A DNA stretch of 64,000 nucleotides, taken from the IMG/VR virus record IMGVR_UViG_3300045988_162372; one strand, written 5' to 3'. A program made the translations under genes and the position numbers. Below the pieces are notes generated by a model that had not been told where the DNA came from, ran no database searches, and saw only the letters and a list, made by a program, of their open reading frames with translations. Positions 27,814 to 38,971 of this stretch are shown in pieces (the stretch's first letter is position 1; each line of letters opens with the position of its first letter). The stretch is from a virus.

Positions 27814-28233
27814 ATGAAAAATATTAATTTTTACAACTTACAAAATATTGTCGAAATTTGTCTTTATCCTAAAAGACGAAATACATGGTTTAAACTATAT
27901 AGAAAACAAGGCTATCACTGGTGGAGAATATTTGGAAAAATACCATTGCTCAAATACTACGTGAAACAAGATTTGTATTCACTTGTTCTTAGACATGATT
28001 TGACTGAAAAAGATGTTTTAGGTATGGAATCTAATTGTTATATTGAAAATAATAAAGTATATTACAAGCCTCATATACACATCTATTTTGTCGGAGATGA
28101 TATGACAAGCTATCATGGAGCAGCATTTGAAAAATTTTTCCAAGATGAACAGGAAATGCAGGACTATTGTGATAAAATAGTTGCTGAGTGTGAGAAGAGA
28201 AATATACAAATTAAAAATATTGAAGAGATATGA
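27814..28233 (+). CDS. hypothetical protein
   Basis: 139-aa ORF with an ATGA overlap to the next gene. Confidence 0.55.
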   Translation: MKNINFYNLQNIVEICLYPKRRNTWFKLYRKQGYHWWRIFGKIPLLKYYVKQDLYSLVLRHDLTEKDVLGMESNCYIENNKVYYKPHIHIYFVGDDMTSYHGAAFEKFFQDEQEMQDYCDKIVAECEKRNIQIKNIEEI

Positions 28234-28970
28234 AATATATGGGGAATAAAAGACGTATAGTTAATGATATACTACCTATTATACTTGAATATAATACCAA
28301 TAATATATTTGTTGATTTGTTTTGTGGGAGTTGTTCTGTAATACAAAATGTACCAACAGAATACAAACGTATTGCTAATGATAAGAACAAATATTTAATT
28401 GAGATGTTCAAGTTATTAACTAATGGTAAGAAATATCCTAATTATATTGATAAAGAAACATATTCTCATTATAGAAATATTTACAATCAAGAAAGAAAAG
28501 GAATTATTAAACTTACTGATGAACAATATGCAGAAGTCGGATGGTATGGTTGGATGGGTTCTTTTAATGGAAGATTTTTCTCTGGCGGATATGCAGGACA
28601 TAATGTGATGCAAAATAATGGAAAACCAAGAGATTATATAACAGAACAAATTAACAACACTCTTTCGCAGATACCATATTTCAAAGGTCTAGAATTTTAT
28701 TCAAAAGATTATCAAGAGGTTGAAATTCCAGAAGATTCTATTGTATATTGTGATATACCTTATAGAGATACAAAACAATATGAAACAAGTAAAGACTTTG
28801 ATTATAAATGTTTTTATAATTGGTGTAAAGAAAATAAAGACAGATATAAGATATTTGTCTCAGAATACTCCATGCCTAATGATTTTAAATGTATATGGCA
28901 GAAAGAAGTAACAAATGCGATGAATACAACAAAAACTTATAAACCGATTGAAAAATTATTTAAAATATAA
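28230..28970 (+). CDS. DNA adenine methyltransferase, Dam (D12) class
   Basis: N-terminal KYMGNKRRI, motif I FVDLFCGSCSV and motif IV VYCDIPY. Confidence 0.8.
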   Translation: MKYMGNKRRIVNDILPIILEYNTNNIFVDLFCGSCSVIQNVPTEYKRIANDKNKYLIEMFKLLTNGKKYPNYIDKETYSHYRNIYNQERKGIIKLTDEQYAEVGWYGWMGSFNGRFFSGGYAGHNVMQNNGKPRDYITEQINNTLSQIPYFKGLEFYSKDYQEVEIPEDSIVYCDIPYRDTKQYETSKDFDYKCFYNWCKENKDRYKIFVSEYSMPNDFKCIWQKEVTNAMNTTKTYKPIEKLFKI

Positions 28971-28972
28971 AT

Positions 28973-29188
28973 TTATTTCTTCTTTGCAAAATAACCTCTT
29001 AGTGCAGCTTCTGCACTTTCTTTGGATTTGTAATCAGCAGCCCAATCACCATCTGCTTCATTGTGACCTTTTCCTTTATGTCCACGGATTTTCCATTTGT
29101 TGCCTTCTTTATGGATAACATTCTTTAATTCTTCTTTAATGATTCTCTTCAAATCACTTTCAGTTATAACAAAATTTTTTTTCACCAT
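28973..29188 (-). CDS. small protein with the leader motif
   Basis: The track ORF extends to 29314 across the divergent promoter. The ATG at 29188 gives MVKKNFVITESDLKRIIKEELKNV. Confidence 0.55.
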   Translation of the reverse strand: MVKKNFVITESDLKRIIKEELKNVIHKEGNKWKIRGHKGKGHNEADGDWAADYKSKESAEAALRGYFAKKK

Positions 29189-29216
29189 AGTTTTAACACT
29201 AATTTTCTTATAAATA

Positions 29217-29248
29217 TTTGCATATATCAAAAGAAATATGTATCTTTG
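29217..29248 (+). promoter_or_regulatory. Bacteroides-type promoter
   Basis: TTTG at 29217-29220, a 20-nt spacer, then TATCTTTG at 29241-29248. The track ATG at 29238 overlaps the -7 box, so the real start is downstream. Confidence 0.7.
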
Positions 29249-29276
29249 CAACAGAATTATAAATTGTAAATTGATT

Positions 29277-29888
29277 ATGGCTAATAAAGATTGGACTGGA
29301 AATGCAAACAGCATTTGGAAAACATTGGGTGCAAGTAATCATACTGATAAAGAACGTCAAAATGAAGACTACTATGCAACTGATCCAATAGCTGCTGAAT
29401 GGTTGTTAAAAATCGAAGAGATACCAAAGGATAAACCTATATGGGAATGTGCGGCAGGCGAAAAACATCTTTCAAAAGTATTTGAAGAACATGGCTATAA
29501 AGTACGTTCAAGCGACCTTATTGTAAGGATAGAAGACGTAGAACAGCTTGATTTTCTTACAAGCAATGAAACATGGGATGGAACAATAATCACAAATCCA
29601 CCATACAATCAGGCAGTAAATTTTATACAGAAAGCAATGGAGAGTATAACGGAAGGTAATAAAGTGATTATGTTTTTGAAAGTTCAGTTTCTTGAAGGAA
29701 AATCTAGAAAGAAACTTTTTGAAAAATACCCTCCTAAAACAGTATGGGTTTCTTCTTCTCGTATTACTTGTGCTAAAAATGGCGATTTTGAGTACATGAA
29801 GGCTAATGGGGGTTCTGCTGTTGCTTATGCCTTTTATGTGTGGCAAAAAGGGTATAAAGGAGATACTATTCTAAAATGGTTTAATTAA
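29277..29888 (+). CDS. DNA methyltransferase with an NPPY motif (N6-adenine type)
   Basis: Starts MANKDWTGN. Has ECAAGEKHL (SAM-binding-like) and TIITNPPYNQ (motif IV). Confidence 0.75.
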   Translation: MANKDWTGNANSIWKTLGASNHTDKERQNEDYYATDPIAAEWLLKIEEIPKDKPIWECAAGEKHLSKVFEEHGYKVRSSDLIVRIEDVEQLDFLTSNETWDGTIITNPPYNQAVNFIQKAMESITEGNKVIMFLKVQFLEGKSRKKLFEKYPPKTVWVSSSRITCAKNGDFEYMKANGGSAVAYAFYVWQKGYKGDTILKWFN

Positions 29889-29902
29889 AATGCGATATAA
29901 AA

Positions 29903-30469
29903 ATGATAGAAACTGAAATTATATACAACGATAGCACTGAGCGTGTAAAAGCCTATAAAGACTTCAATAAAGAAACACGCACAGTTACTTTTTATCTTGA
30001 TGATAAGAAAATGTTTCCAATTGATAAGGATGAGGATGGTTTTACTGAATATATTCCAACACCGTATGAATTGTTTGGTATTGAATGTGGTGATGGATGG
30101 AAGGGTTTAATTGAACCTATTATGGAATATATAAACAATTATAATAAAGACAAGAAAGAAGAAGATAAAATTATAATATTCCAGATTAAAGAAAAATTCG
30201 GAGGACTAAGATTCTACGTTGACCACGGAAACGAAGAACTTCATAATATGATAGATAAAGCTGAAGAAGAAAGCTATAAAGTTTGTGAATTTTGCGGAAG
30301 TAAAGAAGATGTAGGTCAAACGGCTAATGGATGGATTACAACTTTGTGTCACAACTGTGTTAAGAAAATAACACAAGAAAAAGAAGTACCTATCCGTTGG
30401 AGAAGAAATAGTGATGAAAAACTTTATATTGTAAAATTCAATGAAGATGATGAATTAATAGAAAAATAA
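29903..30469 (+). CDS. hypothetical protein with a C-terminal CxxC...CxxC
   Basis: 188 aa; contains CEFCGSKEDVGQTANGWITTLCHNC. Confidence 0.6.
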   Translation: MIETEIIYNDSTERVKAYKDFNKETRTVTFYLDDKKMFPIDKDEDGFTEYIPTPYELFGIECGDGWKGLIEPIMEYINNYNKDKKEEDKIIIFQIKEKFGGLRFYVDHGNEELHNMIDKAEEESYKVCEFCGSKEDVGQTANGWITTLCHNCVKKITQEKEVPIRWRRNSDEKLYIVKFNEDDELIEK

Positions 30470-30486
30470 AAAAATTAATAAATAAT

Positions 30487-31713
30487 ATGGGTTGTTTTAA
30501 TAAAATGGGCTTTTATAGTCACCTGCCAATAACAGCAGGTGATGAAATTGTGATGTTTATATGTGCTGATAATACACAGTCTAATAAAGGTAATAATAAT
30601 CCTATTTATATAGATGAGTTTTATGCTCCATTTTGTTTACCTATATATGGTACATATGACGAATATGGGTTTATTGAAAATATCGTAAAAGACACAAACA
30701 CTGATTTGCTTGAAAAGAAATTCGGCAAATCTGTAGAAGATATACTTAGATTAATATACGATTATGAAAGGGGTTATCCTACAGATATAGCTGAAAAATA
30801 TGTACACATGTTTAAAGATGTCATCGAAAAAAATAAAGTCCCAACATTGATACTTACAATGGAAAGGAAAGATGTATTCGATACAATGGTAAAACTTTCT
30901 GATAAACCATATTTTGATGCAAATGCTTGTAATCTATGGCATAATATAGGTGATTTTTGGCTCTCTCAATTAGGATTTATTAAAAAAGAAAAACTGGAAA
31001 AATATAATAATTTTCGATATGTTCTGGATAAATATGAGGGAGAATACTATGTTTCAAGCGATGGGCATTGTCCTCACATTATCAATAGTAAGACTTTGGC
31101 AGAATATCCTTGTTATAAAGGTTTTCAAGATTTAATCAGAAAGTGGAAGGAATTTACTGGTATTGAGCTTAAATTTAAGGATGAAAATTTATATGGCAAA
31201 AATATAATAGATTTGTCATTCGATATAACAAAAGAAGTATATTATACAAATTTTAAATATGAAAATAATGACATTATCACTAATGAAACAAATATTACAG
31301 ATGAAAATTTAATAAATATAATAAAAGATTATAAGAGACTTACGGAAAAAATAGGTAAGGGTAATTTTTTCACAGAAGATCATTATGTATTTGTTTATGA
31401 TGGGGAAACAAAATTTCCTAATGATATTATCCCATTCAATATGTATTGCTGTCTATTGTTTAGAGGCTCAATGCACTTGTATGATGATTATTATAATATT
31501 TTTACTGACGAATTTAAAGATATATGTTGCAAATTTGCTAAATTTAATTATACTTTAAGAGGTCTTTGCGGAAAATATGATGTATCCATGTATGGCAATC
31601 AGAGTGTTTCAGACAGATTTTATTTGAACAATTTTGCAAAGTTAAATAATTCATATTCACAAATCATTGAAAAATTATATAAACGATATGACGACATTGA
31701 AGAAACTGAATGA
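30487..31713 (+). CDS. hypothetical protein
   Basis: 408-aa ORF with an ATG start. Confidence 0.65.
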   Translation: MGCFNKMGFYSHLPITAGDEIVMFICADNTQSNKGNNNPIYIDEFYAPFCLPIYGTYDEYGFIENIVKDTNTDLLEKKFGKSVEDILRLIYDYERGYPTDIAEKYVHMFKDVIEKNKVPTLILTMERKDVFDTMVKLSDKPYFDANACNLWHNIGDFWLSQLGFIKKEKLEKYNNFRYVLDKYEGEYYVSSDGHCPHIINSKTLAEYPCYKGFQDLIRKWKEFTGIELKFKDENLYGKNIIDLSFDITKEVYYTNFKYENNDIITNETNITDENLINIIKDYKRLTEKIGKGNFFTEDHYVFVYDGETKFPNDIIPFNMYCCLLFRGSMHLYDDYYNIFTDEFKDICCKFAKFNYTLRGLCGKYDVSMYGNQSVSDRFYLNNFAKLNNSYSQIIEKLYKRYDDIEETE

Positions 31714-32569
31714 TAATGCACAGTGGCTTAATGCGGATTGTATTGAAACAATGCAATATATGAAAGAACATAACATACAAGTGGATTTAACTGTTACAAG
31801 TCCACCTTATGACAACCTTAGAACTTACGGGAATAAAACAGATTGGTCTTTCGACAAATTCAAAGAAATTACAAAACTTTTATATGATATAACTTCAGAT
31901 GGAGGAATTGTCGTTTGGGTGGTCGGTGATGCCACTATTAACGGTTCTGAAACTGGTTCGTCATTCAAACAAGCATTGTATTTTATGGAATGTGGTTTCA
32001 AACTACATGATACAATGATATATGAAAAGAATAGCAGTTCATTTCCTGCAAGACGAGATAGTAAAAGATATACACAAATATTTGAATATATGTTTGTCTT
32101 TGTTAAAGACAAAATTAAAACAGGGCATTTAATATGTGACAAAAAAAATATCTGGGCTGGTGTAACTAATTGGGGATGCAATACACAATATGATGTAAAC
32201 GGCAATAAAGTAGTTCGTAATGATATTAAACCAGTACCAGAATTTTCACCACGTACTAATATATGGAAATATTCAGTAGGCTTTAACGTAAATATAGGTA
32301 AACATAGTGCTGTTTTTCCTATTAAATTAGCTGAAGACCATATATTATCATGGAGCAATGAAGGTGATATTGTGTTTGACCCATTCTTGGGGAGCGGAAC
32401 AACTATGTTTGCAGCAATTAAAAATAATAGAAGATTTATTGGCTGTGAAATAAATGAAGATTATGTTAAATCCTATGAGGATAATTATAAACAATATTTA
32501 AAGAGATGGCAAAATGATATTAATAGAAAGAATAAAGAAGCTGTTTCAGAGAAAGAAGAAAATAACTGA
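31688..32569 (+). CDS. beta-class DNA methyltransferase (N4-C/N6-A family)
   Basis: The first ATG is 31688; the track start 31667 is TTG. Motif IV is VTSPPY, and motif I (FDPFLGSGTT) follows it, which is the beta-class order. Confidence 0.85.
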   Translation: MTTLKKLNDNAQWLNADCIETMQYMKEHNIQVDLTVTSPPYDNLRTYGNKTDWSFDKFKEITKLLYDITSDGGIVVWVVGDATINGSETGSSFKQALYFMECGFKLHDTMIYEKNSSSFPARRDSKRYTQIFEYMFVFVKDKIKTGHLICDKKNIWAGVTNWGCNTQYDVNGNKVVRNDIKPVPEFSPRTNIWKYSVGFNVNIGKHSAVFPIKLAEDHILSWSNEGDIVFDPFLGSGTTMFAAIKNNRRFIGCEINEDYVKSYEDNYKQYLKRWQNDINRKNKEAVSEKEENN

Positions 32570-33486: not shown

Positions 33487-34596
33487 TTATTTTTGATGTA
33501 TCTTCGCAAATTCGCTCCTTTCATGTGGATTATAAAGTGTTGGTGCTATAACTCCCAATGTAAATGGCATAATACTTGCAACGCCTAATGCCTGTAAAGC
33601 AAGACAAACATCATCCAATGTCGCACCGCTTGAAAGATTATCATCAAATACTATGACATGTTTTCCTGCTATTTTATACTGTATATCCTTGTATTTTGGG
33701 TTAATGGTAAATATGCCTTCAATAGAGCGTCTTTCTTTGTCATCAATTGACTTTATTTGCCAATTCTTTACTTTGCCAGTTTCTTTATCAATTGTCGGAT
33801 CAAGCCCTTTTTGCCCCTTTCTTAGATTTTTAATATCTTGGTTATACAAATCCACTTGTTGTTTCTTTTGAAGAATATTGTTAGGTAATCTTCCCCTATT
33901 CCCTTTTCTTTGGGAAAGATAAGATGATATTTCGTTTTGTAATTCATCTATTTTACGCCTAACATCTCTTATATCCTCATCTTTCTTCCATTTATTAACT
34001 TTCATCTGTAATCTATGAATTTGATTATCATCCAATCCTGCATTTCTCGCAGCATCAACATTTACATAGATGTTTCTTACATTCTTCACTAATAGTTCAG
34101 GTTGTAGTTTAATCCCTTCACTTTGAGGATACATATTAATCAGTTTACCAGTTATCTCTCTATTAAACTGTGAAGAAGATTGAGGAAAAGTAATAATATC
34201 AACAGGATTGTTTCCTATTATATATTTAATCAGCATAACTGAACGATTTATGAACTGTTGCATTGTCTTTTCATCCCTGATTACAGTTCTTTTCTGCATA
34301 TCAATCCCATGTTTTAACGCCTTATTCACATCCATATTTTTAATATTATATAGATTATAGGACATTACGTTTGATTTTGGTAATAATACCTTTCTAACCT
34401 TCAATGATTTATCTGGGTTGAATAATGTATCATCAATTTTGCTATTAGCACCAGGACGATAAGAAACCATACGGTTATCAGTACCTTTTACAGTCTTGAA
34501 ATCCAATGCTTCATTATCAAGCGTTTCAAACAAAAGGTCTATATTTTCTTGCAAATATCTATATTGTGCTTCTGTGATTTTAATCGTTTTTCCCAT
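33487..34596 (-). CDS. protein with a C-terminal type-I phosphoribosyltransferase (ComF-like) domain and the N-terminal leader motif
   Basis: PRPP-binding motif HVIVFDDNLSSGATLDDV lies about 38 aa from the C-terminus. The N-terminus is MGKTIKITEAQYRYLQENI. Confidence 0.7.
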   Translation of the reverse strand: MGKTIKITEAQYRYLQENIDLLFETLDNEALDFKTVKGTDNRMVSYRPGANSKIDDTLFNPDKSLKVRKVLLPKSNVMSYNLYNIKNMDVNKALKHGIDMQKRTVIRDEKTMQQFINRSVMLIKYIIGNNPVDIITFPQSSSQFNREITGKLINMYPQSEGIKLQPELLVKNVRNIYVNVDAARNAGLDDNQIHRLQMKVNKWKKDEDIRDVRRKIDELQNEISSYLSQRKGNRGRLPNNILQKKQQVDLYNQDIKNLRKGQKGLDPTIDKETGKVKNWQIKSIDDKERRSIEGIFTINPKYKDIQYKIAGKHVIVFDDNLSSGATLDDVCLALQALGVASIMPFTLGVIAPTLYNPHERSEFAKIHQK

Positions 34597-34648
34597 TATA
34601 TTAATAACATTTAACTATATAGATATAAATAGTTTCAGATATTATCTG

Positions 34649-34656
34649 TATCTTTG
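34649..34656 (+). promoter_or_regulatory. -7 box TATCTTTG upstream of the recombinase gene; the -33 is only TTTC
   Basis: ctgTATCTTTGcattg lies 108 nt upstream of ATG 34764. Confidence 0.5.
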
Positions 34657-34763
34657 CATTGTTAAAAGAATAAGAAACTATGCAACAATTTTTCTAACAA
34701 ATAATTAAAATATATAGTAATTTTTATATTAATGAGATATTTATATATAAAAGATAATAAATT

Positions 34764-35360
34764 ATGAAATCAAGCAAAGTAAAACAAATATTAAATGTAA
34801 CGCAACAAACCTTAAGCAACTATGTTGCCAAAGGGATATTGCATCCAGTGAAATTATCAAAAACACACTATGAATATGACGAGAATGAGGTTTATGCCTT
34901 GCTTGGTAAAAACAAGAACAATGACAGAATTTCTGTAACTTATGCAAGGGTTTCACTTCCAAAGCAAAAGGATGACTTGGAAAGACAAATTGAAAGGCTC
35001 TATTCCTATGCCATAAGCAACGGATATAATATTTCTGAACAGCTTTCCGACATAAAAAGCGGAATGGAATTTGAAAAACGCAAGAATTTCATGAAGCTGC
35101 TCAATATGGTTTGCGAAAATAGAGTCAAGACAGTAATTGTTGAAAATAAGGACAGGCTTGTACGTTTTGGATTCAATCTCTTGAAAGAGGTTTTCAAATT
35201 ACATGGTACGGAAATTCTGGTAATGTCTGATATTCCCAACAAATCTTATGAGCAAGAATTGACAGATGACCTTATTTCAATCATTCATTATTATTCAATG
35301 AAAAGTTATTCAAACAGAAGAAAATTGAACAATGCAGAAAAGATATTGAAAGGAGAATAA
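34764..35360 (+). CDS. tnpA: IS607-family serine recombinase (MerR-type HTH plus resolvase core)
   Basis: N-terminal HTH KVKQILNVTQQTLSNYVAKGIL, catalytic region VTYARVSLPKQKDDLERQ, and VIVENKDRLVRFG. Confidence 0.9.
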   Translation: MKSSKVKQILNVTQQTLSNYVAKGILHPVKLSKTHYEYDENEVYALLGKNKNNDRISVTYARVSLPKQKDDLERQIERLYSYAISNGYNISEQLSDIKSGMEFEKRKNFMKLLNMVCENRVKTVIVENKDRLVRFGFNLLKEVFKLHGTEILVMSDIPNKSYEQELTDDLISIIHYYSMKSYSNRRKLNNAEKILKGE

Positions 35361-35366
35361 ACAATC

Positions 35367-36995
35367 ATGATTACACGTAAGATAAAAATAACATATTGTA
35401 GCGATTTTGATTTTATCAAAGATAAGGTCAAAAGCTACTCCTATGCTATGAGGCTTATGTGTAAGATGATTGACGAATCTTCCGACAACAACTTTATTGC
35501 AAAATTCAAGACAAGGTTTAATCTTACAGACATCGAATATCGCTCGCTTGTTGCGGATGTAAAAGCGAAAATTACTTCAATGGAAACAACCAATGAGAGC
35601 AAGAAGAAGAAAATCGAAGAATTGAACAAGAGATTGTACGAGGACAAGATTTTGACAAAGAGGGAAAAATATAAGATATTTAACAAGGTTGCATTCCTTA
35701 CCAAATCGTTAGAGAATAATCTTGTCTTTGGCGGAAGAAATCTCCTGCAAAAGATAACAAGGGAATACAATAAAAAGTCGGACAAGGACGAAAAACTATT
35801 GAACGAATACTTGACAGAATACAGGAATAAAAGGAATGGAATACCTTGCTTTATCACTGGTGAAGCAAATCAGAAAGGCAATAGATTCTTTGATTTTTCG
35901 GGCTTGGGCAATAGTAAAGTGATTTATAAACCCTTTAAGGGAAAGAGGATTGAAATTGAATTCAAATTGCCAAAGAAGTTCAAAAATGATTTTTTGAAAC
36001 TCTCTGAAATGGTAGGAAAGAAGGAGATTTCCCTCACGGTTTCGCTTGGTTTGGAATACATTTATTTCACTTTTGATGAGGAAAAACTGAATGGGTACGC
36101 CATTGACGAAATTGAAAGGAGATTGGATGTCAAGGAAATCAAGAGACAAGGTTATCCGAAAGAGATTGAAACATTGAAAATAAAGGAGGTTTATAAGGAG
36201 TATTACGACAGACAAAGGGAAAGGAAACTTGTTGGAAAGATTAAAGACAGATGTGTTGCGGTTGATTTGAATCCTACAAACATTGGTTTTTCCATATTGG
36301 ATAAAACAGATGAAAACATCAGTATAATCCATTGCGGATGGTTTGATATGGAAAGGTTTTGCGTTAAAACTGGCAATGCTTCAGACAGTAAAGAACAAAG
36401 ATATCTAAACAACAAACGCAAATATGAATTGACTGTTGTTTTGAAAAAACTGTTTAATATCGCAAGATATTACAAATGCTCGCAATTCATAATGGAAGAT
36501 TTGGATGGTGATTTTAAAAACAAGGGAAAAGAGACCAATAGGAAGGTTAAGAATGTATGGAATAGAAACTTGATTGAAAATATCATAAGGAGGAGATGCA
36601 ATGAAAACGGTATAGAATTGATAAAGATAAATCCTGTGTATTCCAGTTTCATAGGAAACATCCAATACGGCTATGTGGATGCGGTAAACGCTTCCATTGA
36701 AATTGGAAGGCGTGGATTATTTAAATATACAAAGGGTACATTTTATCCGCATATCAGATACAAGGATTTGGACACTGTGGAAGCCAAATTTGGCGTAGAT
36801 GTTCCGAATGGTACTTCATCTGATTGGGTAACAATGTACAAGTCCTTAAAAGATTTATTTCCAGATGGAAATGAATTTTCACACAGATTGAGGACGGCAT
36901 TGAATGACATTCCAAAGAATAAGTATTCAATGTTCAGCATGAGTTCACATTATAGTAAAGTAAACTATATAAGATTTAATATTAAAAACTATTAA
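35367..36995 (+). CDS. tnpB: TnpB-like RuvC nuclease, 542 aa, apparently without the zinc-ribbon (TNB) insert
   Basis: RuvC-I is CVAVDLNPTNIGF (D300), RuvC-II is QFIMEDLDG (E377) and RuvC-III is YVDAVNASIEIGRRG (D438). Between INPVYSSFIG and D438 there are only ~8 residues and no CxxC pairs. Confidence 0.8.
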   Translation: MITRKIKITYCSDFDFIKDKVKSYSYAMRLMCKMIDESSDNNFIAKFKTRFNLTDIEYRSLVADVKAKITSMETTNESKKKKIEELNKRLYEDKILTKREKYKIFNKVAFLTKSLENNLVFGGRNLLQKITREYNKKSDKDEKLLNEYLTEYRNKRNGIPCFITGEANQKGNRFFDFSGLGNSKVIYKPFKGKRIEIEFKLPKKFKNDFLKLSEMVGKKEISLTVSLGLEYIYFTFDEEKLNGYAIDEIERRLDVKEIKRQGYPKEIETLKIKEVYKEYYDRQRERKLVGKIKDRCVAVDLNPTNIGFSILDKTDENISIIHCGWFDMERFCVKTGNASDSKEQRYLNNKRKYELTVVLKKLFNIARYYKCSQFIMEDLDGDFKNKGKETNRKVKNVWNRNLIENIIRRRCNENGIELIKINPVYSSFIGNIQYGYVDAVNASIEIGRRGLFKYTKGTFYPHIRYKDLDTVEAKFGVDVPNGTSSDWVTMYKSLKDLFPDGNEFSHRLRTALNDIPKNKYSMFSMSSHYSKVNYIRFNIKNY

Positions 36996-37007
36996 ATATG
37001 TTAATTT

Positions 37008-37748
37008 ATGTATCTGACAAAAGAAATCATTTTAGGAAGAGAAGAGAATTATGATGCAACCAAACTGAACTGTTGGGACTTCTGCAAAGGTGCTGACATT
37101 CGTGAAGGTATTAATATGAAATTTGGAAATATGCTTACTGATTTTCCGTTTGAAGTGAATGGGGTAAAATTCAAATGCAGTGAAATGTTATATCTTTGTG
37201 GACAATATTCAGATGGAAGTAAAACAAATAGCCAAATACAAAAAATGATTTGTGAATGTAATAACGGTTTCGCCGCCAAGAAATTCATTCGTAACAAATA
37301 TATTGATAATGTAAGAAAAGATTTTAACGATTTCAGAATACAATGGATGTTCTGGGTTGTATGGCAAAAGGTGATTGGCAATGAGGATTTTAAAAATTTA
37401 CTTCTTTCTGTACCAGATGATGCAATTATTATAGAAAACTCAAGTTGGCAAACAAGTACGACTGCTACTATATGGGGATGCAAGAATATGGAATTGAGAA
37501 GAATTAGACAGAATGTGAAACTTGAAATTGAGAACATCAGCACTCATATGACAAAAAAAGATGTCGAACATCTTGTTAGTGTTGAAACAAACAAAGTGAA
37601 TCAAGTCGGTGTATTCACAGGTCAAAATAATTTGGGGAAAATACTTATGCTTTGCAGGGAAGCTATTAAGAATAATATAATTCCAAAAATTGATTACAAT
37701 TTATTGTCTAAATATGATATATTTCTGATGAACAAGCGTTTGTTCTAA
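37008..37748 (+). CDS. NADAR (YbiA/DUF1768)-like protein
   Basis: LTDFPFEVNGVKFKCSEMLYLCGQY, RIQWMFWVVWQKV..NEDFKNLL and IIENS....IWGC match the NADAR motif order (SNF..F...G..F.S.EH..Q..K, W....M....KF, E....D..WG). Confidence 0.7.
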   Translation: MYLTKEIILGREENYDATKLNCWDFCKGADIREGINMKFGNMLTDFPFEVNGVKFKCSEMLYLCGQYSDGSKTNSQIQKMICECNNGFAAKKFIRNKYIDNVRKDFNDFRIQWMFWVVWQKVIGNEDFKNLLLSVPDDAIIIENSSWQTSTTATIWGCKNMELRRIRQNVKLEIENISTHMTKKDVEHLVSVETNKVNQVGVFTGQNNLGKILMLCREAIKNNIIPKIDYNLLSKYDIFLMNKRLF

Positions 37749-37789
37749 TATATTTATAATATAATAATGGATTGTTTCATATTGAACTT

Positions 37790-38167
37790 ATGACGAAATA
37801 TACTATATCAGAGAGTAGGTTAAAAGAACTCGTTGTGGAAGAAGTAAAAAGCGTTGTTACTAAAAGACGCTTAATGAATGTTGTCTATAAGGCAACACAA
37901 CAACTTACCAGTCGTTTATACAATGATGACCATTGGCAAGGAGTGAATGATGTTCGTGACGCATTAGGAAAATTGGGCATTGAGTCAGATATTTATCCTA
38001 TCGACGGAGGCTATCGACAAAATAAAGATGGAGATGCATTCTGGAAAGAATATCAAGTACAACTTCAATATGGAGGTGTAGTCGTAAATGGCATTCTTAA
38101 CTGTCATGCGGCAGGTAGTGTTGAAGATCCATTTGATAGATATGATATGACGCTTCAATTATGGTAA
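37790..38167 (+). CDS. small protein with the leader motif
   Basis: The track start 37772 is TTG; the ATG at 37790 gives MTKYTISESRLKELVVEEVKSV. Confidence 0.6.
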   Translation: MTKYTISESRLKELVVEEVKSVVTKRRLMNVVYKATQQLTSRLYNDDHWQGVNDVRDALGKLGIESDIYPIDGGYRQNKDGDAFWKEYQVQLQYGGVVVNGILNCHAAGSVEDPFDRYDMTLQLW

Positions 38168-38209
38168 AATAATAATTATTTTTCAAGTAGTTTCTTATTT
38201 TATTATTAT

Positions 38210-38971
38210 ATGAATATATCCCCTTTTAAAAGTTTTAAAGAAATGGTAAATGAAGCCGTTGAAAATATGAATGGCAACGGTATGTATTATAAGTTCCAAA
38301 TAGATAATGCTTTTAGATATAAAGCTGTTACTATTCTGGCTCAAAATGGTTATCTTGTACATGGAACTGATGCTGAATTTGATAGTTTTGATAGTTCCAA
38401 AATAAGAGGTGGAACAAGAGGTAATTATGGTTACGGTGCTTATTTTACAAATGCTGCATATAAATGTGAAGAATATGGTCGAAACTTTATATTTCTATAT
38501 GCAAGAGATTTCAATTTTTTAAATTTGGCACAAAAGGTAGCTGATAATGATATATATAAAGATATCAATAAACAAGTAGATTATATTAGACAGAATATCG
38601 CCTATTTTGAGGAAATGCTTTATAGTGTTCGTACTGTAAAGGAATATGAATATGCTGAAAAAGAATTAAAAACGTATAAGGAACAATTAGATGACATATT
38701 ACCAGATAGTAAAACAGAAGCGTTTATTGAACAGTATAATTTAATACTAAGAAAAAATCCTGATATTGATTACCGTAATATGACAAAGAAATTAGACAAT
38801 ATCTTCACTAATGCAATGGGTGCTGATTTTGTTGCTAATATGTTTCTTAAAGCAGGATATGACGGTTATACAATAGACTTTGAATATGTTATTTTCAATT
38901 TTGAAAAATTAAATCAGAATATTGTAAAGGATAAAAACGCATTACTCGAAAAGCTGATGAATAACAATTAA
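38210..38971 (+). CDS. ART-like (ADP-ribosyltransferase-fold, polyvalent-protein type) protein
   Basis: YLVHGTDAEFDSFDSSKIRGG followed by YGYGAYFTNAAYKCEEYG. The same two-motif pattern occurs in 3661..5922 and 56862..57671. Confidence 0.6.
   Translation: MNISPFKSFKEMVNEAVENMNGNGMYYKFQIDNAFRYKAVTILAQNGYLVHGTDAEFDSFDSSKIRGGTRGNYGYGAYFTNAAYKCEEYGRNFIFLYARDFNFLNLAQKVADNDIYKDINKQVDYIRQNIAYFEEMLYSVRTVKEYEYAEKELKTYKEQLDDILPDSKTEAFIEQYNLILRKNPDIDYRNMTKKLDNIFTNAMGADFVANMFLKAGYDGYTIDFEYVIFNFEKLNQNIVKDKNALLEKLMNNN

What the first reader, a model, noticed from the sequence alone, without database searches (positions are those of the whole stretch)
34597..37007. IS607-type recombinase plus a zinc-ribbon-less, enlarged TnpB-like RuvC protein inside a phage
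Seen in sequence:
- A MerR-HTH/serine-recombinase gene (YARVS...DLERQ) is followed after 6 nt by a 542-aa ORF.
- That ORF has TnpB/Cas12-like RuvC motifs in the canonical order: VAVDLN D300, IMEDL E377, VDAVNAS D438.
- In TnpB, and as far as I recall in most Cas12 and Fanzor proteins, a CxxC...CxxC zinc ribbon (TNB/Nuc) sits between RuvC-II and RuvC-III.
- Here INPVYSSFIGNIQYGYVDAVNAS leaves about 8 residues and no cysteines at that position.
- The N-terminal 290 aa (WED/REC equivalent) is longer than in typical ~400-aa TnpB.
- An AGGAG lies 11 nt upstream of its ATG, which is unusual among the surrounding genes.
- Codon use and G+C look foreign to the phage.
- The stop is only 12 nt from the NADAR-like gene. 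A 3' guide (omega) RNA scaffold would therefore have to overlap coding sequence or lie elsewhere.

Inference: this may be a structurally divergent RNA-guided (or guide-independent) nuclease lineage, either mobilised in or domesticated by a phage.
Basis: partly seen in the sequence, partly recalled or inferred. Interest (0 to 1): 0.8.

Follow-up and report, generated by a model that had tools for sequence, protein, structure and literature searches.

The report
Phage transposon that docks on start codons
This is a mobile IS607-type insertion sequence in a giant gut phage: its TnpB-like nuclease really has no zinc ribbon and comes with a conserved guide-RNA-like structure, and the element sits exactly on a gene's start codon and supplies a new one.

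Summary
A full-length IS607 serine transposase (34764-35360) is followed by a 542-aa TnpB/Cas12-fold protein (35367-36995). Its D300/E377/D438 triad is invariant, and no zinc ribbon occurs in any of 228 relatives.

It is not an orphan lineage. The family has about 1,460 clusters and is almost confined to large phages. It includes the catalogued ISCaje4 TnpB of Campylobacter phage CP220. A 2023 survey already reported TnpB clades without zinc fingers.

New here:
- The element is exactly 34683-37016, defined by 12 independent insertion contexts and two empty-site comparisons.
- The last ~275 nt (36743-37016), mostly inside the ORF, form a seven-helix RNA with strong covariation. This is the expected omega-RNA, ending just before the variable flank that would be the guide.
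- The element lies between the ATG and codon 2 of the NADAR gene. Its right end provides a replacement ATG-TAT-CTG in frame. Seven of 12 contexts show this arrangement.

Domestication, guide-independence and "foreign G+C" are not supported. Nuclease activity and the proposed TAM (TATG) are inferred, not shown.

The parts
34649..34658 (+). Host (not element) DNA: Bacteroidetes-type -7 promoter box TATCTTTGCA of the interrupted NADAR gene
   Evidence: TAnnTTTGCA occurs 25 times in the window against 8.2 expected, with 0/100 shuffles reaching 25. Copies mostly lie about 15-60 nt upstream of an ATG, and many are preceded by TTTG about 20 nt upstream. This copy is 31 nt upstream of the ATG at 34680.
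34679..34682 (+). Left junction: TATG, holding the original start codon of the NADAR gene (ATG 34680-34682). It is the proposed TAM and carries the TG crossover dinucleotide.
   Evidence: An ATG, in most copies preceded by T, lies about 80 nt upstream of the tnpA ATG in all 8 copies that keep a left end. The joined flanks of L082 align with the empty site in the window, with the junction exactly after ATTATG. The closest NADAR homologues start MTKEII/MAKEII.
34683..37016 (+). The insertion sequence itself (2,334 bp): IS607-family, carrying tnpA plus a tnpB-like gene
   Evidence: It is 94% identical over about 2.39 kb to a copy in a different phage context, L001. Further copies are L082-L085, L193-L198, L002 and L324. 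The right end is sharp in all of them. The left end is set by the empty-site comparisons.
34683..34763 (+). Left end (LE), non-coding, AT-rich. It begins with a 5-codon mini-ORF read from the host ATG (ATG CAA CAA TTT TTC TAA).
   Evidence: Conserved block TTTTCTAACAAATAATTAAAATATATAGTAATTTTTATATTAATGAGATATTTATATATAA in win/L001/L082. The sequence was read. No TAnnTTTG box lies inside the element on the + strand.
34764..35360 (+). tnpA: IS607-type serine transposase (N-terminal MerR-like HTH plus resolvase catalytic domain; YARVS motif)
   Evidence: NCBIfam NF033518 transpos_IS607, E=4.5e-52 and 176 bits against a cutoff of 110. Pfam Resolvase 1.1e-18 and MerR_1 2.1e-6. PHROG 6620 transposase, 7.9e-52.
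35367..36995 (+). tnpB-like gene, 542 aa: WED/REC (aa 1-290), RuvC (aa 291-451) with no TNB zinc ribbon, and a C-terminal extension (aa 452-542). Catalytic codons: D300 at 36264-36266, E377 at 36495-36497, D438 at 36678-36680.
   Evidence: AlphaFold2 pLDDT 85.4, pTM 0.69. Foldseek PDB hits: Cas12f 2e-7, Cas12k 3.9e-7, RuvC, Fanzor2, TnpB. TIGR01766 gives 29.6 bits, below its cutoff of 32. No Pfam hit reaches even E=0.05, and none is to a TnpB/Cas12 model. Triad invariant and no CxxC in 228 relatives. Codons checked.
36743..37016 (+). Candidate omega-RNA scaffold with seven helices: H1 36743-49/36825-31; H2 36754-58/36819-23; H3 36766-78/36795-809; H4 36783-85/36792-94; H5 36842-49/36888-95; H6 36896-906/36924-34; H7 36937-50/36998-37011; single-stranded tail ATCTG 37012-37016.
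   Evidence: RNAalifold on 11 copies (50-94% protein identity) gives 60 pairs, 24 with compensatory changes. 94.8% of cells are paired, against 35-42% when partners are slid, and 0/500 shuffles reach any measure. Synonymous-codon identity rises from about 0.67 to 0.82-0.91 in the last ~90 codons while amino-acid identity falls to 0.62. Minimum free energy is -72.5 kcal/mol with z=-5.1 on the + strand, against z=-2.8 on the - strand.
37008..37016 (+). Element-borne replacement start ATG-TAT-CTG at the very right end, in frame with the interrupted gene
   Evidence: The terminal motif A[TC]G[TC]ATC[TC]G is kept in all 12 contexts. It is in frame with a 140-737-codon downstream ORF in 7 of the 12. 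The window protein MYLTKEIIL (246 aa) compares with homologues MTKEIIL/MAKEIIL (244 aa).
37017..37036 (+). Right flank, i.e. codons 2-8 of the NADAR gene (ACAAAAGAAATCATTTTAGG). It is the presumed guide portion of a read-through omega-RNA and matches the target in an empty site.
   Evidence: The sequence differs in every independent context immediately after the conserved ...ATCTG. The 20-nt length is assumed by analogy with TnpB (established knowledge), not measured.
37017..37748 (+). Interrupted host gene: NADAR-domain protein, now read from the element's ATG at 37008
   Evidence: Pfam NADAR 1.2e-9. Homologues were retrieved and read.

Best explanation
Window 34683-37016 is an autonomous IS607-family insertion sequence in a ~313-kb phage that uses Bacteroidetes-type promoters.

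Components:
- A serine transposase, TnpA.
- A 542-aa TnpB-superfamily RuvC nuclease. It belongs to a large, almost phage-restricted clade that has lost the zinc-ribbon TNB insert and gained a larger REC region and a ~90-aa C-terminal extension.
- A ~275-nt structured RNA (36743-37016), mostly encoded inside the 3' end of tnpB and ending at the element boundary.

Proposed mechanism. Steps 1 and 5 rest on direct sequence evidence; in step 1, assigning the crossover to the TG is inferred. Steps 2-4 are inferred by analogy with characterised TnpB/IS607 systems.
1. TnpA inserted the element by a crossover at a TG dinucleotide, directly after the ATG of the NADAR gene.
2. The captured host promoter transcribes mini-ORF, tnpA, tnpB and the downstream gene as one unit.
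3. The 3' part of that transcript folds into the scaffold. Its 3' extension into the flank (gene codons 2 onward) serves as the guide.
4. TnpB plus this RNA cleaves copies of the same gene that lack the element: TATG followed by the guide match. Examples are co-infecting related phages or excised sites. Recombinational repair then copies the element in, which is homing or retention. The occupied site reads TCTG instead of TATG before the guide match and would be spared.
5. The right end ends in ATG-TAT-CTG in frame, so the interrupted gene keeps a start codon and gains only Tyr-Leu. This makes the insertion tolerable in a densely coding phage genome.
For: Element identity and mobility:
- TnpA matches the IS607 equivalog model.
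- The same element, 94% identical over about 2.39 kb, sits in another phage context. In all there are 12 independent contexts.
- A syntenic related phage (L082) has the element at a different gene, and the window carries the empty site there. The junction falls exactly after ATTATG.
- The closest NADAR homologues are 244 aa and start MTKEIIL/MAKEIIL, against MYLTKEIIL here.
- Derivatives with tnpA deleted and a frameshifted copy exist, as expected of a decaying selfish element.

Nuclease:
- AlphaFold2 model pLDDT 85 with Cas12f, Cas12k, RuvC, Fanzor2 and TnpB as structural neighbours.
- The D/E/D triad is invariant in 227-228 of 228 relatives.

RNA:
- 60 pairs in 7 helices, 24 with compensatory changes.
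- 94.8% paired against 35-42% in slid controls, and 0/500 shuffles reach the observed values.
- Many G-U pairs and a better z-score on the + strand.
- Excess synonymous conservation confined to the last ~90 codons.
- No substitutions in the last ~600 nt of the element between sister phages whose tnpB is frameshifted.
- The conserved sequence stops at ...ATCTG, and the flank differs in every context.

Start-codon docking:
- 7 of 12 contexts are in frame with a long downstream ORF called from the element's ATG.
- The host promoter box and leader lie upstream of the left-junction ATG.
- No promoter box lies inside the element.

Phage restriction: 145 loci in IMG/VR, against 11 small MAG contigs across 185,579 species' genomes.
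Against: - No transcript, cleavage or TAM data exist. RNA guidance and nuclease activity are inferred.
- The TNB zinc ribbon is needed for DNA cleavage in characterised Cas12f/TnpB enzymes (established knowledge, not tested here), so its absence could mean a changed or lost activity.
- The RuvC-III Asp sits one residue further from the N-A-[AS] motif than in canonical D-x-N-A-A (D-A-V-N-A-S).
- The C-terminal extension does not fold confidently on its own (pLDDT 52.7), so the idea that it replaces the TNB domain is speculative.
- The proposed TAM (TATG) and the self site (TCTG) differ at essentially one position, a thin margin for self/non-self discrimination.
- Five of 12 close contexts and two distant ones (L004, L033) are not at the start of a long ORF. 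Start-codon docking may therefore reflect survivorship plus a short target preference rather than a dedicated mechanism.
- Part of the nucleotide conservation in the 3' region is explained by invariant amino acids (P461, W487, R509, S530).
Confidence: 0.75

Rival explanations
1. The protein is a guide-independent accessory factor or nuclease of the transposon, for example a structure-specific RuvC-like resolvase that helps TnpA. On this reading the conserved 3' structure is not a guide RNA but a cis element: a transposon end, a transcription or translation signal that couples tnpB to the downstream gene, or an mRNA-stability element.
For: The target-nucleic-acid-binding zinc ribbon is missing in all members. 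Bacterial RuvC resolvases are among the significant structural hits. Helix 7 encloses the tnpB stop codon and the replacement ATG at 37008, so it could regulate re-initiation. The RuvC-III Asp is shifted by one residue.
Against: The whole WED-REC-RuvC architecture of RNA-guided TnpB/Cas12 enzymes is present and is the best structural match. The structure is long (7 helices, about 275 nt), covaries, and ends exactly at the scaffold/flank boundary, as omega-RNAs do. A serine recombinase acts on double-stranded DNA and needs no hairpins (established knowledge of IS607). Many copies lack TnpA altogether (about 55 of 80 viral loci), so the protein is maintained without it.
Confidence: 0.12
2. The tnpB-like gene has been domesticated by the phage, for example as an RNA-guided repressor or regulator of the NADAR/ADP-ribosylation genes (TldR-like) or as an anti-competitor weapon. 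It would no longer be part of a mobile element.
For: The element sits in the same place in several related phage contigs (L087-L092). It is placed precisely between a promoter and a gene.
Against: The catalytic triad is intact, unlike TldRs. A full-length TnpA is present. Near-identical copies occupy unrelated sites in other phages. In the sister phages L088/L089 the gene is frameshifted at this very locus, which argues against selection for a host function.
Confidence: 0.05
3. Start-codon docking is only apparent. The transposase has a short AT-rich target preference (around TATG) that happens to resemble start-codon contexts. Only insertions that do not destroy genes survive in a dense phage genome, and the terminal ATG is part of the RNA scaffold or transposon end rather than an adaptation. 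This rivals only step 5 of the main explanation.
For: Five of 12 close contexts are intergenic or next to convergent genes. One copy has ACG instead of ATG (L195). The ATG lies inside helix 7. Other subfamilies end in different motifs without an ATG.
Against: Seven of 12 contexts are in frame at position +1 of a long ORF, where a rough estimate for random insertion is 8% or less. That figure is my own estimate, not a computed result. The two empty-site comparisons place the insertion exactly between codons 1 and 2. In L085 the upstream gene's overlapping ATGA stop/start is preserved.
Confidence: 0.35

Closest known systems
ISCaje4 of Campylobacter phage CP220 (catalogued as an IS200/IS605-family element; Timms et al. 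2010, PMC2853527)
   Same: A phage-borne insertion sequence with a resolvase-like TnpA fragment followed by a TnpB. Its TnpB is 31% identical over aa 151-450 and shares the clade signatures QYSSFIGN and ASIEIGRRG, with no CxxC between them.
   Different: It is shorter (465 aa, 1.7 kb) and its TnpA is truncated to 80 aa. It has a different host phylum and a different right end with no terminal ATG. The 2010 paper gives no omega-RNA, says nothing about zinc-finger loss and reports no target analysis.
Canonical TnpB/omega-RNA systems (ISDra2, IS607-family TnpBs; OMEGA)
   Same: The D-E-D RuvC triad in the same order, a WED-REC-RuvC fold, association with an IS607 serine TnpA, a structured RNA that overlaps the 3' end of tnpB and stops at the right end with the flank as presumptive guide, and a conserved short motif 5' of the left end as presumptive TAM.
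   Different: - No TNB zinc ribbon: 11 residues where others have about 33 or more.
- RuvC-III Asp offset by one residue.
- About 130-140 aa larger than the ~400-aa canonical TnpB, through a longer REC region and a C-terminal extension (the canonical size is from the literature and my own knowledge).
- Below the thresholds of the curated TnpB models.
- The RNA scaffold lies almost entirely inside coding sequence.
- The element lands on start codons.
Zinc-finger-less, virus-enriched TnpB branches in the Altae-Tran et al. 2023 classification (major clade RIIIr-4; PMC10691335)
   Same: [quoted passage not shown] It also says zinc fingers are lost in some large branches. All three properties fit this family.
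   Different: RIIIr-4 is described as having the RuvC-III Asp replaced by His and as including MazE/RHH-associated members. Here an Asp is invariant, although shifted by one residue, and no RHH gene is adjacent. Their sequences and figures were not available to me, so equivalence is unproven.
Cas12f / Cas12k (type V CRISPR effectors)
   Same: These are the best structural matches to the AlphaFold2 model.
   Different: There is no CRISPR array in the window. The protein has no zinc-ribbon TNB domain and is encoded by a transposon.
Free-standing and intron-borne homing endonuclease genes of phages (Seg/Mob of T4; IStron group I intron plus TnpB elements)
   Same: They are selfish nuclease genes that spread between co-infecting phages and have ways to avoid inactivating host genes. 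This comparison rests on established knowledge and the review PMC13565253.
   Different: Target recognition here would be RNA-guided. Gene function is preserved by supplying a new start codon rather than by splicing or intergenic placement.

Membership tests
IS607 family of insertion sequences | Serine-recombinase TnpA with an N-terminal MerR-like HTH | tested here: met
   NF033518 transpos_IS607, 176 bits against a cutoff of 110, covering profile positions 2-184 of 187. Pfam MerR_1 plus Resolvase.
IS607 family of insertion sequences | A discrete mobile unit found in different genomic contexts, with empty sites | tested here: met
   Twelve contexts with a sharp right end. An empty site for the L082 copy lies at window ~29277. 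IS-free NADAR homologues exist.
IS607 family of insertion sequences | No target-site duplication; crossover at a shared dinucleotide; no long terminal inverted repeats | tested here: inconclusive
   TG ends both the left flank (aTG|) and the element (cTG|), and no duplication is seen. Only weak AT-rich inverted matches link the ends. The crossover itself cannot be shown from sequence.
TnpB / Cas12 superfamily (RNA-guided RuvC nucleases) | Split RuvC domain with D...E...D in order | tested here: met
   D300 228/228, E377 228/228, D438 227/228. The RuvC-III Asp is one residue further from the N-A-[AS] motif than in canonical sequences.
TnpB / Cas12 superfamily (RNA-guided RuvC nucleases) | WED-REC-RuvC bilobed fold | tested here: met
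   AlphaFold2 pLDDT 85.4. Foldseek: Cas12f 2e-7, Cas12k 3.9e-7 (TM 0.43/0.40), and weaker Fanzor2 and ISFba1 TnpB hits. Viral TnpB-like proteins also match.
TnpB / Cas12 superfamily (RNA-guided RuvC nucleases) | TNB/Nuc insert (C4 zinc ribbon in TnpB, Cas12f and Fanzor) between RuvC-II and RuvC-III | tested here: not met
   The S427-E445 stretch is 19 residues with no CxxC in 228 members. PF07282 aligns only weakly, over model positions 4-28 of 60, in relatives. No Pfam hit for the window protein reaches even E=0.05, and none is to a TnpB/Cas12 model.
TnpB / Cas12 superfamily (RNA-guided RuvC nucleases) | Passes curated sequence models (Pfam OrfB_IS605/Cas12f1-like_TNB, TIGR01766) | tested here: not met
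   TIGR01766 scores 29.6 bits against a cutoff of 32. There is no Pfam TnpB-family hit.
TnpB / Cas12 superfamily (RNA-guided RuvC nucleases) | Cognate structured RNA at the 3' end of the gene, running to the transposon end with the flank as guide | tested here: met
   Seven helices and 24 compensatory pairs; 94.8% paired against 35-42% in slid controls. Synonymous-site conservation. Whether the RNA is expressed was not testable.
TnpB / Cas12 superfamily (RNA-guided RuvC nucleases) | RNA-guided, TAM-dependent DNA cleavage | not testable with these tools
   This needs biochemistry or an interference assay.
RIIIr-4 clade of Altae-Tran et al. 2023 | Lacks the C4 zinc finger and is enriched in viruses | tested here: met
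   the clade description is from PMC10691335.
RIIIr-4 clade of Altae-Tran et al. 2023 | RuvC-III catalytic Asp replaced by His | tested here: inconclusive
   Asp438 is invariant but offset by one residue. His is common (104/228) four residues upstream, at position 434. Their alignment was not available.
Fanzor | Eukaryotic or giant-virus host, with the RuvC-II Glu relocated next to the zinc finger | tested here: not met
   E377 is in the canonical position, there is no zinc finger, and the setting is a bacteriophage. The Fanzor description is from PMC13565253.
TldR (nuclease-dead TnpB-derived repressors) | Inactivated RuvC site and loss of transposon context | tested here: not met
   The triad is intact and the gene sits inside a mobile element with TnpA.

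The most novel reading that the evidence does not exclude
A phage-restricted TnpB clade has dispensed with the TNB zinc ribbon that is required for cleavage in characterised relatives. A C-terminal domain may take over that role, and its coding sequence is almost entirely shared with the omega-RNA scaffold. The clade's IS607 elements would act as RNA-guided homing elements between co-infecting giant phages. They would recognise the start codon itself as part of the TAM (TATG), use the first codons of the target gene as guide, and carry a replacement start codon so that the invaded gene stays functional.
Probability: 0.4. Interest if true: 0.7.

Novelty: new variant of a known kind. Interest (0 to 1): 0.5.

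Why it matters
If the protein is an active RNA-guided nuclease, it shows that the TNB zinc ribbon is dispensable in the TnpB/Cas12 scaffold. It would also offer a natural example of what replaces the ribbon, which is useful for understanding substrate loading and for engineering compact editors.

Start-codon docking with an element-borne replacement ATG would be a third way for a selfish nuclease element to live inside dense phage genomes without killing genes, alongside self-splicing introns/IStrons and intergenic placement. The clade's near-restriction to large phages makes it a candidate driver of gene conversion and competition between co-infecting phages.

If the protein turns out to be inactive or guide-independent, the locus is simply one more copy of a common phage insertion sequence.

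Tried and rejected
- Pattern scan of viral contigs with the right-end 16-mer TAAWTTATGTATCTGA. The 100 matches were chance hits with no TnpB nearby.
- Pattern scan of metagenome contigs with TWYAGCATGAGTTCRYAT.
- Search for close relatives in GTDB genomes: none found.
- Megablast of 34000-38000 against GenBank phages: no match.
- Rfam, at gathering and at E<=1 thresholds: no family matched.
- The covariance model of the 3' 180 nt (R1) found only the close subfamily plus one 37%-identity member (L033). The RNA of more distant subfamilies could therefore not be aligned with it.
- A second subfamily, with right ends ...TTGAATTTTGTATTTTA, was aligned. At 89% mean column identity it is too conserved for covariation, so I did not pursue it.
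- AlphaFold2 on the C-terminal 91 aa alone gave pLDDT 52.7. I ran no fold search on it, so the idea that it replaces the TNB domain remains untested.
- Terminal inverted or direct repeats between the two ends: only weak AT-rich matches, not interpreted.
- My first reading put the left end at about 34633-34650, from similarity among win/L001/L082. I rejected it because that similarity is the shared phage promoter.
- PF27229, a precomputed Pfam tag on some relatives, is not in the local Pfam copy and could not be identified.
- The supplementary data of PMC10691335 are not held, so the clade assignment could not be checked.

Full report
**What is there**

The window carries two co-oriented ORFs: 34764-35360 (198 aa) and, 6 nt later, 35367-36995 (542 aa).
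- The first is a full-length IS607-type serine transposase. It scores 176 bits against NCBIfam transpos_IS607 (cutoff 110), and matches Pfam MerR_1 plus Resolvase.
- The second has no convincing Pfam hit (none reaches even E=0.05, and none is to a TnpB/Cas12 model). It gives only a sub-threshold TIGR01766 (TnpB-related) match at aa 348-427.
- An AlphaFold2 model built on 25 relatives is confident (pLDDT 85.4, pTM 0.69).
- The model's best structural neighbours are Cas12f, Cas12k, bacterial RuvC, Fanzor2 and TnpB, plus TnpB-like proteins of phages and giant viruses.
- No CRISPR array is present in the window.

**The zinc ribbon is really absent, in the whole family**

- In 228 near-full-length relatives, D300 and E377 are present in 228/228 and D438 in 227/228.
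- The stretch from S427 to E445 (YSSFIGNIQxxYxDAxNASIE) is 19 residues long in 217/228.
- None has CxxC in that stretch, and none has two CxxC anywhere.
- Pfam's TNB model aligns to relatives only weakly, over its first 28 of 60 positions.
- Cas12X has about 33 residues where this protein has 11.
- The RuvC-III Asp is one residue further from the N-A-[AS] motif than in canonical D-x-N-A-A.
- The extra length comes from a longer helical REC region and a ~90-aa C-terminal extension. That extension has near-invariant P461, W487, R509 and S530.
- Folded alone, the extension is not predicted confidently, so its role is open.

**How common and how known**

- An exhaustive profile search finds 1,460 clusters at 50% identity, 550 of them below E=1e-30.
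- IMG/VR holds 145 loci, many on contigs of 100-500 kb and several with multiple copies.
- About a third of those loci have an IS607 TnpA directly upstream.
- One genome per 185,579 bacterial and archaeal species yields only 11 loci, all on small MAG contigs. The clade is therefore essentially phage-borne.
- Deposited relatives are in Prevotella Lak megaphages and in Campylobacter phages. There the gene is annotated as the TnpB of ISCaje4. Its sequence shows the same zinc-ribbon-less signature.
- The 2010 paper that named ISCaje4 says nothing more about it.
- Altae-Tran et al. 2023 already reported that zinc fingers are lost in some large TnpB branches. They also reported that a major clade, RIIIr-4, lacks the zinc finger, has an altered RuvC-III and is found in viruses.
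- I could not verify that this family is RIIIr-4. Their description mentions an Asp-to-His change, whereas Asp is invariant here, and their data are not held.

**Element boundaries**

- The source is a ~313-kb phage contig.
- A 94%-identical copy sits in a different phage context. Further copies at 54-88% identity give 12 independent contexts in all.
- In every context the conserved sequence ends in ...TT(T/A)A(T/C)G(T/C)ATC(T/C)G, after which the flanks differ. The right end in the window is therefore 37016.
- The left end first looked fuzzy, at about 34633-34650. That similarity turned out to be a promoter. TAnnTTTGCA occurs 25 times in the window against 8 expected, mostly about 15-60 nt upstream of an ATG and in many cases with a TTTG about 20 nt further up. 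This is the Bacteroidetes-type promoter pattern (my own knowledge of that consensus).
- All copies with a left end have an ATG, in most preceded by T, about 80 nt upstream of tnpA.

Two empty-site comparisons settle the boundary.
1. L082 is a syntenic relative of the window phage, and its copy sits at the orthologue of window gene ~29277-29888. Its joined flanks align colinearly with the window, and the junction falls exactly after ATTATG.
2. The closest homologues of the window's NADAR protein (94-98% identical) are 244 aa and begin MAKEIIL or MTKEIIL. The window protein is 246 aa and begins MYLTKEIIL.

The element is therefore 34683-37016 (2,334 bp). It is inserted between the ATG and codon 2 of the NADAR gene, with TG at both junctions and no duplication.

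**Start-codon docking**

- The last nine bases of the element, ATG-TAT-CTG, are in frame with the interrupted gene.
- In 7 of 12 contexts the gene caller starts a 140-737-codon ORF at that ATG (gene tables).
- Examples include a signal-peptide protein (MYL-KKVLFFILCLLS), a 5'-3' exonuclease and a methyltransferase-like gene.
- The other five contexts are intergenic, so none of the 12 insertions interrupts a long ORF internally.
- Two distant members with a similar right end do not show the pattern.
- No promoter box lies inside the element on its coding strand. This is consistent with transcription from the captured host promoter.
- Whether the pattern reflects a dedicated adaptation, or target preference plus survivorship, is not resolved.

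**The RNA**

- Among six close copies, synonymous-codon identity is about 0.67 along the ORF. It rises to 0.82-0.91 in the last ~90 codons, where amino-acid identity falls to 0.62.
- RNAalifold on 11 copies (50-94% protein identity) predicts seven helices with 60 pairs, 24 of them with compensatory changes.
- On the named structure, 94.8% of cells pair, against 35-42% when partners are slid. No shuffle out of 500 reaches any of the five measures.
- The many G-U pairs and the fold energies favour the sense strand: z = -5.1 against -2.8.
- The last helix pairs AGCATGAGTTCACAT with ATGTTAATTTATGT, leaving ATCTG single-stranded at the boundary.
- Sister phages with a frameshifted tnpB (one extra A in a poly-A run) have no substitution in the last ~600 nt of the element.
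- Rfam has no matching family.
- This is the layout of a TnpB omega-RNA: the scaffold overlaps the 3' end of the gene and stops at the transposon end, with the flank as guide.

**Most likely mechanism**

By analogy with characterised TnpB systems, read-through RNA would carry the first codons of the invaded gene as guide. The nuclease would then cut alleles that read TATG followed by that sequence, meaning empty sites in co-infecting relatives or after excision. Repair would copy the element in. The occupied site reads TCTG at the equivalent position. These steps are inferred; nothing here shows expression or cleavage.

- G+C is not foreign: 0.327 against 0.311 +/- 0.022.
- The "12-nt gap" is to an ATG that belongs to the element.
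- An omega-RNA overlapping coding sequence is normal, not a problem.
- The gene is not domesticated.
- AGGAG upstream of the ORF is real and such motifs are rare in this phage (4 of 64 long ORFs). It lies within the end of tnpA.

**Verdict**

The locus is a mobile IS607-family element of a common, phage-restricted TnpB clade without a zinc ribbon. That clade has been noticed in surveys and catalogued once, but not characterised. The covariation-supported RNA and the start-codon docking with a replacement ATG are the parts I could not find described in the literature I could search.

Noticed in passing
window, 25 sites, e.g. 5983, 18828, 29241, 33130, 39806, 48383 (+) and 59788, 61394, 62986, 63436 (-): A strongly over-represented promoter-like motif, TA(T/C)(C/A)TTTGCA, mostly about 15-60 nt upstream of an ATG and often with TTTG about 20 nt upstream (25 copies against 8 expected). 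It matches the Bacteroidetes -33/-7 pattern and suggests a Bacteroidota host, in line with relatives in Prevotella Lak phages.
   Followed up: partly
window 29238-29888: The mechanical ORF start at 29238 (MYLCNRIINCKLIM...) lies inside the promoter box (tATGTATCTTTGCA). The real start is probably the ATG about 39 nt downstream (MANKDWTG...). This site is the empty counterpart of the insertion seen in the related phage L082.
   Followed up: partly
L088 and L089 (sister phages, same insertion site; window equivalent ~35660): tnpB is split into 102-aa and 394-aa ORFs by one extra A in a poly-A run. The 40-42 substitutions relative to the window all lie upstream of about 36420 or in the flank. The last ~600 nt of the element are identical.
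   Followed up: yes
L085:3878-3995, L198:2848-3000, L083:3680-3694: Non-autonomous derivatives. L085 and L198 keep the left end and the last ~17-30 codons of tnpA but have lost the rest. L083 has lost the left end and tnpA altogether, and its tnpB ATG is itself preceded by GTTTATG.
   Followed up: partly
L001:21051-21629 and L195:6472-6711: The same phage contigs also carry canonical TnpB genes or fragments that do have the Cas12f1-like TNB (zinc-ribbon) domain. Both kinds of TnpB therefore coexist in one phage genome.
   Followed up: no
L063, L070, L073, L060 versus L074, L064 (distant subfamily; last ~110 nt before ...TTTTTATATTTTA): The same conserved nucleotide block, containing hairpins such as AAAAGT...ACTTTT, is coding in some members and lies downstream of an earlier stop codon in others. 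Each subfamily has its own conserved terminal motif (...TTTTGTATTTTA, ...TTTTTATATTTTA, ...TTTTTGTATAT). This suggests the 3' RNA is family-wide, although it diverges beyond the reach of the covariance model.
   Followed up: partly
window 37008-38971: The interrupted NADAR-domain gene is followed, two genes downstream, by a protein with a weak ADP-ribosyltransferase (ART-PolyVal) match. This may be an ADP-ribosylation/de-ribosylation module.
   Followed up: no
window 27814-32569: A cluster of several DNA methyltransferase-like genes (Pfam MethyltransfD12, Dam and N6_N4_Mtase hits in the gene tables of L087) lies upstream of the element.
   Followed up: no
window 33487-34596 (-): The divergent 369-aa neighbour has only a weak phosphoribosyltransferase-domain match at its C-terminus and no clear family.
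   Followed up: no
relatives P0036, P0044, P0046 and others: Some family members carry a precomputed Pfam tag, PF27229, that is absent from the local Pfam copy. A curated model for this family may therefore already exist in a newer Pfam release.
   Followed up: partly
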